From the UHGV virus genome UHGV-0115919: a stretch of 12,559 nucleotides of DNA, one strand, 5' to 3'. Below, in pieces: positions 4,208 to 6,116 of this stretch. The stretch's first letter is position 1. The number at the start of each line of letters is the position of its first letter. Under the pieces are notes generated by a model that searched no databases, had not been told where the DNA came from, and saw nothing but the letters and a program-made list of their open reading frames with translations. The stretch is from a virus. Made by a program: the position numbers and the translations under genes.

Positions 4208-6116
4208 TTACGCCTTAATAGATAGTTGGACTACTGCTTCTGGGTGAGTTTGAACACAATCCAGATAGTGATAATTCCTAATTACTACGCCTAAACTAGA
4301 ACGATATGTCGTATCATCGTAATCTACAGAAGATCCTACCCAATTTGCGATAGTAACAAAGCTAAAATCACCCATTAGGATAGTATCATCAGCTACCATA
4401 GTGGATACGTGCAATGGCATTTCATCTAGCAACCATTGAGTATCAGCAAAACGCATACCTTCAGCTAGTGCAATTCCGGCTACTATTTGAGAGGAAAGGC
4501 GTCTGACGCAATTTAGCGTAGGTTACTGGACTAACGATAGCGATACAATCACGGGATTTAACGTTAGCAGTTAGTAGTTTTGCAAATGCTGCTTCGATAT
4601 CGGAATCTGCGATAACACCGGAAGCTGCGGTTTCTACTTTAGTAGCTTGTGCTTCAACAACGTCAACTACTGCTTTTTCTAGAGAAACAGCTACGTTTTC
4701 TAGTAGAACATCGGTGATGTAACGTTCGATATTAGGACTAGATAGGATTAGGCTACGGGTTAGTGGAATTGAACCAGCAAATAGTTTTGGACGCATAACG
4801 ATTTGATCGAAAGATGCAACGGATTCTTCAATCGCTTGACCTTCTTCATAGAATTTGAAGGATGCTTTAGAAGCGATACCAGTTAGACGTGGAATAGTAA
4901 ATTCACGGTTATTCATACCAGAATAAACTTTAACACCCATACGACCTAGGATTGAATCTGGAAGTAGTGGTTGGATAAAATCATCTGCATAGTTAGTTTG
5001 AATTGCACCTGCTGCGGTAACAGTAGTGGTATTTGCACGAGCTTGTGCTAGTTCACCAGCTTGTAGGGTAAAACCACGTTGACCTTGTTCTAGATTTTCT
5101 AGAGCGGATTTATCACCTTTAATTGCTTTAGCTAGTGCTTCGATAGTACGGACTTGTTGAGTCATTTTGTCTTCCTTAATATTAAGTTTATTATGTTTTT
5201 GTGTCTCGATTTCACGTTTAAAATCTTCGACGCTTACGTTATTATTTATTGCTTCAGTACTGTCAATATTAAAAACTTTAGCAATACTTTCAATTTCACG
5301 AATACGGGATTGATTCAATTCTTCAGCTTTAGCATCTTCAATTGCTTTCAATTCTGCATTAATGTTATTTAGTTCTTTTTCAACTTCCATTTTACGACGA
5401 GCTTTATCAAGTGAGCGTTTAGCTTCTTCTAGTTCGTGTTCTTCTGGTAGTTCTTCTTTTTCTTCATCTTCTTTAGATTCAGATTCAATTTCACGCACTT
5501 CTGTTTCTTCAACTTCAACCGCTTTTTCTTCAGTTTCTACTGCTTCAACTTCTTCGCGTTCAACTTTATTTTCTTCGTCCATGACAATTTCCTTAAGTTG
5601 TTCACTATCTTTATTTATGCTTCGACCAACACCTACTTTATTGTCGGCAGGACAACTAACCATACTTAATTCATATGGTTCGATCTTAGTTACCATTAGA
5701 TTATTACCTTCAAAATAATAATCACGAATGTTATAACCGAAAGATACTTTAGTTAGTACGCCTTCTTTTACTTGTTGATACTTCTGATCTGCAAATCCAG
5801 TAGCACTAAAACGGACGCTTGCACGTCCTACGCGGTCTGAATCAATTCGAGCATTCTCGACTACACCGATTAACCAATCCATATTGTGATTATATAGGAG
5901 TGGTGCACCTGTATTTAGTCGAGTAAGGTCTACGCTATCAGGAGTAGTAACAAGAATTTCATTGTAGATTTGTCCGTTGATTTCACGTTCTACGGGTTGC
6001 TCTGACATAAAGGCAATTTCTACTACGCGTGAATCATCATCGATAGAATTAGTAATACTTTGAATATTAATTTCACGCGTCTGTTTCATCGCTTCCAGTT
6101 TGATTTGATTGCTCAT
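4208..6116 (-). CDS. Prohead protease (HK97/S78-type) - acidic scaffold segment - major capsid protein (HK97 fold) fusion polyprotein, about 636 aa; one frame break near the 3' end
   Basis: Track ORF 4461..6116 (551 aa): the N-terminus carries protease motifs (APLLYNHNMDWLIGVV with candidate His, VSFGY with candidate Ser), followed by a roughly 140-aa E/K-rich coiled-coil segment, then MCP-like sequence (FTIPRLTGIASKASFKFYEEGQAIEES...). The C-terminus continues in the frame of ORF 4208..4456 (ILMGDFSFVTIANW...). The break is near plus 4486..4499; removing one base from the aaa run at 4495..4497 restores ...TYAKLRQTPSSQIVAGIALAEGMRF. ATG at 6116 is preceded by AAGGAAG. Confidence 0.8.

What the first reader, a model, noticed from the sequence alone, without database searches (positions are those of the whole stretch)
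4208..6116. Prohead protease, scaffold-like acidic coiled coil and major capsid protein encoded as one polyprotein
A single stop-free frame of 1656 nt covers protease motifs, a roughly 140-aa Glu/Lys-rich segment and the start of an HK97-fold capsid domain, so the fusion is not created by a frameshift. In lambda and HK97 the protease and capsid are separate genes. A fused arrangement implies a cis-acting protease that removes itself and the scaffold during maturation. The packaging and portal genes are lambda-like while the protease is HK97-type, so the head module looks mosaic.
Basis: partly seen in the sequence, partly recalled or inferred. Interest (0 to 1): 0.55.

Follow-up and report, generated by a model that had tools for sequence, protein, structure and literature searches.

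The report
Fused protease-scaffold-capsid phage gene, decayed
This is a frameshift-broken copy, in a decaying E. coli prophage, of an already known kind of phage gene that joins the head protease, a scaffold-like segment and the capsid protein in one reading frame. Its one notable feature is that conserved ribosome-binding sites at each domain boundary suggest intact relatives make three nested proteins from it.

Summary
On the minus strand, 4461-6116 is one 551-codon frame. It holds an S78/assemblin-fold prohead protease (aa 1-178), a 139-aa acidic helical segment (179-317) and most of an HK97-fold capsid protein.

The fusion is not a frameshift artefact. Homologues of 580-700 aa occur in one frame in more than 100 loci across bacterial phyla and in cultured phages (R4C, VP882, RcCronus). 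The literature already describes protease-scaffold-capsid fusions.

The copy here is dead. A 1-nt insertion at 4484 cuts off the last 91 codons. The terminase and portal genes are also broken, and other E. coli copies carry a second, independent frameshift.

The "mosaic" reading is not supported. A lambda-family portal next to this fusion is a conserved, old module.

There is one new lead. The only two AAGGA motifs inside the ORF sit 6 nt upstream of in-frame ATGs, exactly at the two domain boundaries. Both are conserved across relatives, with synonymous-codon evidence (AAG 15/15 against 8/46). So intact relatives probably make nested products (protease-scaffold-capsid, scaffold-capsid, capsid), like lambda C/Nu3 or herpesvirus UL26/UL26.5, rather than only one self-cleaving polyprotein.

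The parts
4461..6116 (-). Frameshift-truncated fusion ORF: 551 codons plus TGA at 4461-4463. Residues 1-544 are native and 545-551 are out-of-frame.
   Evidence: phrog_617 matches aa 7-541 to profile positions 4-530 of 626, E=9e-93.
6114..6132 (-). Start 1: AAGGAA (6132-6127), a 10-nt spacer, then ATG (6116-6114). It lies inside the 3' end of the portal ORF, with a 44-nt overlap.
5583..6116 (-). Prohead protease domain, aa 1-178 (Pfam S78 match at aa 64-163 = 5628-5927). His77, Ser125, Glu149, Ser151 and Asp158 are invariant.
5580..5594 (-). Internal start 2: AAGGAA (5594-5589), a 6-nt spacer, then ATG of Met179 (5582-5580), at the protease/acidic-segment boundary.
   Evidence: Predicted SD pairing is -6.1 kcal/mol, in the top 1.3% of codon positions. 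Met179 is invariant in 24 of 24 homologues. An SD-like motif is conserved upstream in most of the clade.
5166..5582 (-). Scaffold/delta-like segment, aa 179-317: an acidic, predicted-disordered stretch (179-224, net charge -17) followed by a long helix (225-282) and short helices.
   Evidence: Composition is. The conserved motif R271/E274/I278...F299/K300 is.
5163..5177 (-). Internal start 3: AAGGAA (5177-5172), a 6-nt spacer, then ATG of Met318 (5165-5163), at the scaffold/capsid boundary.
   Evidence: Pairing energy is -6.1 kcal/mol. AAGGA(A/T) lies 7-13 nt upstream of this ATG in all 15 clade members examined. The Lys codon there is AAG in 15 of 15, against 8 of 46 at other K[DE] sites, p=7e-9.
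4485..5165 (-). In-frame part of the HK97-fold capsid protein, aa 318-544.
   Evidence: In the intact 99%-identical copy P0004, Pfam PF05065 matches aa 372-630, E=2.3e-13. Foldseek hits D3, R4C 8gta, HK97 1ohg and RcGTA capsids at E about 1e-13. An HMM search matches 8gta_A at E=1.4e-14.
4484..4484 (-). Inactivating 1-nt insertion: an extra A on the coding strand, AAT-A-GTA GCC.
   Evidence: Alignment of nine E. coli copies. Homologues read FLSNVAGVAL at this point. Removing the base restores a 635-aa ORF.
4208..4483 (-). Out-of-frame C-terminal 91 codons of the capsid protein, plus the true stop TAA at 4208-4210.
6073..7585 (-). Context: the lambda-family portal gene directly upstream, itself split into two ORFs (6968-7585 and 6073-7047).
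   Evidence: Pfam PF05136 matches profile positions 14-145 and 153-350 on the two pieces. RefSeq annotates the same split.

Best explanation
The locus is a pseudogenised copy of a phage head gene in which an S78 (HK97/T4 gp21-type, assemblin-fold) prohead protease, a delta/scaffold-like acidic helical segment and an HK97-fold major capsid protein are read in one frame. It sits in a decaying, AT-rich, R4C/Cronusvirus-like prophage of E. coli. A 1-nt insertion at 4484 removes the last 91 codons, so nothing functional is made here.

In intact relatives the gene most likely works as nested in-frame cistrons:
1. Ribosomes start at the first ATG (full protease-scaffold-capsid, about 635 aa), at Met179 (scaffold-capsid, about 457 aa) and at Met318 (capsid precursor, about 318 aa).
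2. All products share the capsid domain and co-assemble on the portal, with their N-terminal extensions pointing inward.
3. The few protease-bearing subunits are thereby delivered into the procapsid by covalent tether.
4. After assembly the protease removes itself, the scaffold segments and a short N-terminal pro-piece. This leaves a mature capsid protein of about 265-270 aa.

Shown here: the architecture, the domain identities, their conservation, the position and conservation of the SD+ATG sites, the codon bias, and the pseudogene state.

Inferred, not shown: use of the internal starts, the stoichiometry, the cleavage events and the mature N-terminus.
For: Architecture and domains.

Conservation of the single frame:
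- 24 enterobacterial homologues of 590-673 aa.
- 66 genome loci and 139 viral-contig relatives (the best 80 were kept as loci), nearly all with 580-700-aa stop-to-stop ORFs.

Pseudogene state:
- The insertion at 4484 is shared by six copies.
- Three other E. coli copies carry a different insertion, after gene nt 1339.
- Terminase and portal are also fragmented.

Internal starts:
- In the window, the three ATGs with the best SD pairing (-6.1 kcal/mol, top 1.3%) are Met1, Met179 and Met318. These are exactly the domain boundaries, and each has the same AAGGAA hexamer.
- AAGGA occurs only twice in the 1656-nt ORF, at these two internal sites. Only 3 AGGA/GGAG/GAGG 4-mers occur in the whole ORF.
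- Met179 is invariant in 24 of 24 homologues although it lies in a hypervariable linker.
- The capsid-start ATG keeps AAGGA 7-13 nt upstream in 15 of 15 diverged relatives. The Lys codon there is AAG in 15 of 15, against 8 of 46 at other Lys-Asp/Glu sites in the same genes (Fisher p=7e-9).
- In 77 non-redundant fused ORFs from many phyla, the ATG 5-70 aa after the protease motif has an SD in the gene's top 5% in 56% of cases. The figure is 3.3% for 898 other internal ATGs (Mann-Whitney p=5e-28).
- Cultured roseophage R4C has GGAGG+ATG at codon 189, the strongest SD in its 629-aa gene. Its solved capsid chain, 8GTA, has only 268 residues.

Precedent for nested protease/scaffold genes: lambda C/Nu3, HSV-1 UL26/UL26.5, HFTV1 gp17/17.5 and OsHV-1 (bioRxiv 10.64898/2026.09.13.751334; PMC11565193).
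Against: - There are no expression, proteomic or N-terminal data for any member. The internal starts rest on sequence and comparative evidence only.
- The predicted pairing is moderate (-6.1 kcal/mol) and equal at all three sites, so it says nothing about ratios.
- One subclade (L002, L073-L076) has a weak SD before the Met179 equivalent. Another (L003-L007) lacks that ATG altogether.
- About a quarter of distant loci show a weak SD at the junction.
- Lys-Asp/Glu before the Met is also conserved at protein level and could be a cleavage signal. The AAG codon bias argues for selection on the nucleotides.
- The 268-residue 8GTA chain may be only the modelled part, not a measured mature N-terminus.
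- Two key older papers could not be read: Duda et al. 2013 (PMC3709472) and Liu & Mushegian 2004 (PMC421614). Prior description of internal starts cannot be excluded.
Confidence: 0.68

Rival explanations
1. Single self-processing polyprotein. Only the full-length protease-scaffold-capsid chain is made. Every capsid subunit carries its own protease, which cuts itself and the scaffold off after assembly. The internal ATGs are ordinary methionines.
For: There is one uninterrupted frame with no stop between the domains in more than 100 loci. The literature annotates these genes simply as fusion proteins (PMC7302621, PMC5513430, PMC8601537). A minority of loci have weak or absent junction SDs.
Against: This model does not explain four things:
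- Why the only two AAGGA motifs in the ORF sit 6 nt before the two boundary ATGs.
- Why Met179 is invariant in a hypervariable linker.
- Why AAG is used 15 of 15 times at that Lys against 17% elsewhere.
- Why junction ATGs across phyla are enriched for strong SDs, p=5e-28.

An estimate from general knowledge, not computed with the tools: 415 copies of a roughly 35-kDa internal extension would fill a T=7 procapsid far more densely than known scaffolds do.
Confidence: 0.2
2. The internal SD+ATG sites are leftovers of formerly separate protease, scaffold and capsid genes that fused when stop codons were lost. They are no longer used.
For: The domain order equals the usual gene order protease-scaffold-capsid. 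In HK97 the protease gene (gp4) directly precedes the delta-domain-plus-capsid gene (gp5); this is established knowledge, not tested here.
Against: The fusion is old. It is shared at 25-30% identity across Proteobacteria, Verrucomicrobia, Planctomycetes, Bacteroidaceae and Actinobacteria. Unselected SD motifs and synonymous AAG codons would not persist over that divergence.
Confidence: 0.08
3. The fusion, or the break at its 3' end, is a sequencing or assembly artefact. Alternatively, the 3' shift is a programmed frameshift.
For: The window has many broken genes, which can result from homopolymer errors.
Against: - The same ORF structure recurs in independent complete genomes and viral contigs.
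- Two different frameshift alleles segregate among lineages.
- Intact 62%-identical homologues need no shift at this place.
- The inserted A was not seen to lie in a slippery heptamer (read directly from the sequence printed).
- The fusion itself is present in hundreds of unrelated assemblies.
Confidence: 0.03

Closest known systems
Roseophage vB_DshS-R4C gene 006 (capsid structure PDB 8GTA) and the Cronusvirus and Hapunavirus phages (RcCronus, RcRhea, VP882)
   Same: A 629-632-aa gene annotated 'major capsid protein' with an N-terminal protease-like domain. The gene order is the same: gpW-like joining protein, lambda-family portal, then the fusion. The capsid domain matches at E=1.4e-14. R4C also has an internal GGAGG+ATG just after the protease.
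   Different: Overall identity is only 26-43%. R4C shows one internal start, not two. Those phages are viable and this copy is frameshifted. The R4C structure paper never mentions the protease part.
Actinobacteriophage 'major capsid and protease fusion protein' (Microbacterium cluster EE BurtonThePup gp5; Arthrobacter clusters AM, AU and AN; Rhodococcus RRH1)
   Same: The same three-part logic is described in print: capsid maturation protease, scaffolding and HK97-like capsid subunit in one gene (PMC7302621, PMC5513430).
   Different: No sequence relationship was tested here. The hosts and genome sizes differ. Internal starts are not discussed in those papers.
HK97 gp4 (protease) and gp5 (delta domain + capsid)
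   Same: The same protease family (Pfam S78) and the same capsid fold, with an N-terminal helical scaffold-like domain fused to the capsid protein. Maturation by removal of that domain is established knowledge for HK97.
   Different: In HK97 the protease is a separate gene. It is targeted non-covalently, by its C-terminal tail according to Duda 2013, which I could not read. Here it is covalently joined.
Nested protease/scaffold genes: lambda C/Nu3, HSV-1 UL26/UL26.5, archaeal virus HFTV1 gp17/gp17.5, OsHV-1
   Same: An in-frame internal start gives an abundant short product and a rare long product that carries the protease. The shared C-terminus delivers the protease into the procapsid.
   Different: In those systems the shared part is the scaffold and the capsid protein is a separate gene. 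Here the shared part would be the capsid protein itself, with up to three nested products. Lambda's protease belongs to another family (general knowledge).
P2 gpO
   Same: A protease and scaffold in one chain that cleaves itself (as summarised in the text quoted).
   Different: gpO is made only as the full-length chain and is not fused to the capsid protein.

Membership tests
Peptidase S78 / assemblin-fold prohead protease (HK97 gp4, T4 gp21) | Significant match to the family profile | tested here: met
   PF04586 matches at E=7.8e-11, 42.8 bits against a cut-off of 21, aa 64-163. The intact copy P0004 also matches.
Peptidase S78 / assemblin-fold prohead protease (HK97 gp4, T4 gp21) | Assemblin-like fold | tested here: met
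Peptidase S78 / assemblin-fold prohead protease (HK97 gp4, T4 gp21) | Catalytic His and Ser present | tested here: inconclusive
   His77, Ser125 and Ser151 are invariant in 24 homologues. I did not superpose them on the catalytic residues of gp21 or gp4, so the assignment rests on motif resemblance.
Peptidase S78 / assemblin-fold prohead protease (HK97 gp4, T4 gp21) | Proteolytic activity | not testable with these tools
   Needs biochemistry.
HK97-fold major capsid protein (Pfam Phage_capsid PF05065) | Profile match over the whole domain | tested here: met
   The intact 99%-identical copy P0004 matches at aa 372-630, E=2.3e-13. In the window the match is split: the 82-aa piece gives E=1.2e-4, below the cut-off, and phrog_617 covers both pieces.
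HK97-fold major capsid protein (Pfam Phage_capsid PF05065) | HK97 fold | tested here: met
   Foldseek matches D3, R4C, HK97 and RcGTA capsids at E=6e-14 to 1e-10, with target-normalised TM 0.6-0.7.
Protease-capsid fusion genes (phrog_617, and phrog_4523 'major head and protease protein') | End-to-end match of one chain to a family whose members carry both domains | tested here: met
   phrog_617 matches at E=9e-93 over profile positions 4-530, plus 547-621 on the shifted piece. phrog_4523 matches at E=2e-38. Homologues carry both PF04586 and PF05065.
Protease-capsid fusion genes (phrog_617, and phrog_4523 'major head and protease protein') | Intact open reading frame (functional member) | tested here: not met
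   A +1 insertion at 4484 truncates the ORF. All nine E. coli copies examined are truncated.
Nested in-frame protease/scaffold cistrons (lambda C/Nu3, UL26/UL26.5 type) | In-frame internal start codon with a ribosome-binding site at the domain boundary, conserved in relatives | tested here: met
Nested in-frame protease/scaffold cistrons (lambda C/Nu3, UL26/UL26.5 type) | Separate shorter protein actually produced, in excess over the long form | not testable with these tools
   Needs start-site ribosome profiling, N-terminal proteomics or western blots.
   The portal is PF05136 and the terminase is GpA, but the protease is S78. The same portal family sits directly upstream of the fusion in R4C and four distant loci, so this pairing is a stable lineage, not a recent mosaic. 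VP882 shows the same gene order.

The most novel reading that the evidence does not exclude
In this family the capsid gene is a set of nested in-frame cistrons. The capsid protein, a scaffold-capsid chain and a protease-scaffold-capsid chain are all translated from one frame, from separate conserved ribosome-binding sites. There are three starts in the enterobacterial clade and two in most other lineages, including phage R4C. The ratio of shell, scaffold and protease would then be set by translation initiation, and the protease would be delivered by being part of a shell subunit. This extends the lambda C/Nu3 and herpesvirus UL26/UL26.5 principle to the capsid protein itself. I found no description of it in the searchable literature.
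Probability: 0.6. Interest if true: 0.5.

Novelty: new member of a known kind. Interest (0 to 1): 0.3.

Why it matters
Fused protease-scaffold-capsid genes are annotated in many phages, and this copy is dead.

Two things are useful.
1. It corrects annotation. RefSeq calls the pieces 'HK97 family phage prohead protease' or 'phage major capsid protein' without marking a pseudogene. The R4C capsid structure paper does not mention that its capsid gene encodes a protease.
2. If the nested-start pattern is real, it would explain how these phages avoid packing 415 proteases into each procapsid. It would give a simple, testable example of stoichiometry set by translation initiation. It would also be relevant to defence systems that sense capsid, scaffold or protease proteins.

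Tried and rejected
Searches that found nothing or could not be done:
- blastn of the region against 50,697 phage records found nothing. Only protein-level search did.
- Full-text searches for internal starts in protease-capsid fusions found nothing. Two searches failed on term length.
- Liu & Mushegian 2004 and Duda et al. 2013 are not held.
- The CBASS preprint, the JBD30 paper and the ChaoS9 paper concern protease-scaffold or separate genes, not this fusion.

Readings considered and rejected:
- Programmed frameshift at the 3' end. There are two independent frameshift alleles, intact homologues need no shift, and neighbouring genes are broken too.
- Capsid-forming PICI satellite. The element has its own tail genes.
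- Recent mosaic of lambda and HK97 modules.
- SD motifs as a by-product of Glu/Lys richness. The motif is nearly absent elsewhere in the ORF, and the AAG codon test controls for amino-acid content.

Full report
**What is in the window.** All head and tail genes run on the minus strand. The order is:
- a small-terminase-like ORF (9979-10500);
- a lambda gpA-family large terminase broken into at least four ORFs (8087-10079);
- a gpW-like head-tail joining gene (7585-8136);
- a lambda-family portal split into two ORFs (6073-7585);
- the ORF in question (4461-6116);
- small head-completion ORFs;
- a major-tail-like gene and tail-fibre genes.

The DNA is 36% G+C. It is 99.6% identical to a chromosomal region of E. 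coli MFDS1016424, where RefSeq annotates the same fragmented genes. Twenty of 5,426 complete E. coli genomes carry the region, always once and always on the chromosome.

**Check of the observation.** ORF 4461-6116 is 551 codons plus a stop, 1656 nt. The chance of such a stop-free run at this composition is about 8e-19.
- Residues 64-163 match Pfam Peptidase_S78 at E=7.8e-11.
- Residues 179-317 are 34% acidic with net charge -23. They are predicted to be disordered and then a 58-residue helix plus short helices.
- The rest is capsid protein.

This is the C-terminal end of the same capsid protein in another frame. It matches Pfam Phage_capsid positions 212-278 of 280 and phrog_617 positions 547-621 of 626.

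The break is one extra A at 4484 (AAT-A-GTA GCC), where homologues read FLSNVAGVAL. Deleting it restores a 635-aa ORF that aligns 1-635 to 1-646 of an intact Salmonella homologue at 63% identity. The correction is that the frame holds most of the capsid domain, not only its start.

**Domain identities.**
- His77, Ser125, Glu149, Ser151 and Asp158 are invariant in 24 homologues. I did not superpose them on known catalytic residues.
- The 99%-identical intact copy P0004 (634 aa) passes both Pfam cut-offs: PF04586 at aa 64-158 and PF05065 at aa 372-630.
- Its model's C-terminal domain matches the capsid proteins of D3, R4C, HK97 and RcGTA at E around 1e-13.

**The fusion is real, old and already known.**
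- phrog_617 (626 positions) covers the protein end to end at E=9e-93. phrog_4523 is named 'major head and protease protein'.
- Protein search found 342 relatives. Full-length ones are 590-673 aa in Salmonella, Enterobacter, Citrobacter, Klebsiella, Raoultella and E. coli, mostly labelled 'phage major capsid protein'.
- Pattern scans found 66 loci in genomes from Proteobacteria, Campylobacterota, Verrucomicrobia, Planctomycetes, Bacteroidaceae and Actinobacteria. They also found 139 relatives on viral contigs. Nearly all have a single 580-700-aa stop-to-stop frame.
- Cultured phages carry it too: RcCronus, RcRhea, R4C, VP882, vB_EcoM-ep3, Bas97, Persinger, phiRSP and Xanthomonas phage Murka, the last annotated 'major capsid protein and protease'.
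- The literature states it plainly. [quoted passage not shown] Arthrobacter clusters AM, AU and AN and Rhodococcus RRH1 have fused protease-capsid genes (PMC5513430). Rhodobacter RcC phages do too (PMC8601537). 'Capsid and protease fusion' is a routine annotation term.

**Not a mosaic.** A lambda-family portal (PF05136) lies directly upstream of the fused gene in R4C. The same is true in loci from Thiohalophilus, Bacteroidaceae, Solirubrobacteraceae and Phycisphaerae. VP882 and R4C share the order gpW-like gene, portal, fusion. The E. coli element also has RcGTA-like distal tail genes such as DUF2163, as R4C does according to its structure paper. The combination is a stable lineage.

**This copy is dead.** Six copies (the window, L001, L151 and L068-L070) share the extra A at 4484. 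Three others (L149, L150, L077) lack it but have an extra C after gene nt 1339. The resulting ORFs are 551-552 aa or 454-455 aa. These are two independent lesions, and the terminase and portal are fragmented as well. Together they indicate a decaying prophage. They do not indicate sequencing error or programmed frameshifting. One metagenomic variant (P0004) regains the frame by a second shift, with an altered RRLSSQIV stretch.

**The new lead: conserved internal starts.**
- In the window, the three ATGs with the strongest predicted pairing to the 16S 3' end are Met1, Met179 and Met318. Each scores -6.1 kcal/mol, in the top 1.3% of all codon positions, and each follows an identical AAGGAA hexamer. 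They mark exactly the three domain boundaries.
- AAGGA occurs only twice in the whole ORF, at those two internal sites. Only three AGGA/GGAG/GAGG 4-mers occur in 1656 nt, although the segment is rich in Glu and Lys.
- Met179 is invariant in 24 of 24 homologues within a hypervariable linker.
- The capsid-start ATG has AAGGA(A/T) 7-13 nt upstream in all 15 diverged clade members. In three of them it is the only AAGGA in the gene.
- The Lys codon in that motif is AAG in 15 of 15 cases. At other Lys-Asp/Glu pairs in the same genes it is AAG in 8 of 46 (Fisher p=7e-9). This shows selection on the nucleotides, not only on the protein.
- Among 77 non-redundant fused ORFs from all lineages, 73 have an in-frame ATG 5-70 aa after the protease motif. 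Its SD falls in the gene's top 5% in 56% of cases, against 3.3% for 898 other internal ATGs (p=5e-28).
- In R4C the ATG at codon 189 follows GGAGG, at -9.5 kcal/mol. That is stronger than the annotated start.

Exceptions exist. The L003-L007 subclade lacks the Met179 start, L002 and L073-L076 have a weak SD there, and about a quarter of distant loci are weak.

**Most likely mechanism in intact relatives.** The gene probably acts as nested in-frame cistrons that give protease-scaffold-capsid, scaffold-capsid and capsid precursor. In most other lineages there would be two products. All share the capsid domain and co-assemble. The protease would be carried inside by covalent tether and would then remove itself, the scaffold segments and a short pro-piece. 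By alignment with the 268-residue R4C chain 8GTA, the mature protein would begin near the TAAG motif, at about residue 368.

This parallels lambda C/Nu3, HSV-1 UL26/UL26.5, HFTV1 gp17/17.5 and OsHV-1. The difference is that here the shared part is the capsid protein. The steps after translation are inference. No expression data exist for this family, and I found no paper describing internal starts in such fusions. Two relevant older papers could not be read.

**Verdict.** The fused architecture is a known kind, and this is a new, pseudogenised member of it. The 'cis-acting polyprotein' and 'mosaic' readings are weakened. The nested-start pattern is the one point worth an experiment.

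Noticed in passing
window 8087-10079 and 6073-7585 (minus strand): The gpA-family large terminase is split into at least four ORFs and the lambda-family portal into two. RefSeq annotates the same pieces as separate CDSs in NZ_CP106924.1. The whole head module is decaying, not only the capsid gene.
   Followed up: partly
window 4484 and about 4778; loci L149, L150, L077 against L001, L151, L068-L070: There are two independent frameshift alleles of the capsid gene among E. 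coli copies: an extra A at 4484, or an extra C after gene nt 1339. None of the nine copies examined is intact.
   Followed up: yes
window 10884-12356 (plus strand): An OLD-family ATP-dependent nuclease (PADLOC Old E=6e-66; Pfam AAA_15 plus the start of OLD-like TOPRIM) is divergently oriented next to the small terminase gene. It is 490 aa here against 606 aa in NZ_CP106924.1, so it is probably truncated in this copy as well. It may be a prophage-borne defence gene.
   Followed up: partly
window 2215-3462 (minus strand): A 415-aa ORF has an N-terminal major-tail-protein-like domain (phrog_158, aa 1-138). It is joined to tail-fibre-type repeats (NLSDLTDKA... twice; several tail-fibre PHROGs). 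It has no Pfam hit, and RefSeq calls it hypothetical.
   Followed up: no
L148 (Dinoroseobacter phage R4C, MK882925.1) 2447-4336: The R4C 'major capsid protein' gene encodes 629 aa with an N-terminal protease-like domain, and has an internal GGAGG+ATG at codon 189. The deposited capsid chain 8GTA has 268 residues, and the structure paper (PMC10276861) does not contain the word protease.
   Followed up: partly
L153 (Escherichia phage DCP80, PQ671644.1) 1-3525: A 141-kb record classified as a T4-like Straboviridae phage carries a portal gene (phrog_21, E=5e-63). It also carries a 666-aa fused protease-capsid gene of this family (phrog_617, E=7e-74), annotated hypothetical. That is odd for a T4-like phage and may reflect a chimeric assembly or a misclassification.
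   Followed up: partly
protein P0004 (ENA metagenome; no window coordinates): A 99%-identical copy is back in frame at 634 aa through a second shift. It reads AKLRRLSSQIVAGIAL where homologues read AKLRQTxFLSNVAGVAL. This could be a compensating mutation or a sequencing error.
   Followed up: no
loci L003-L007 (Mangrovibacter, Leclercia, Phytobacter, Serratia): This subclade of the fused gene has no ATG at the protease/scaffold boundary. It keeps the AAGGA+ATG at the scaffold/capsid boundary (MEFSL...), so it would make two products rather than three.
   Followed up: partly
window 377-1033 (plus strand): Two plus-strand ORFs (83 and 134 aa) lie opposite the region annotated as a tail-fibre gene in the near-identical E. 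coli genome. They have low-complexity Leu/Val/Ser-rich translations and look like antisense chance ORFs.
   Followed up: no
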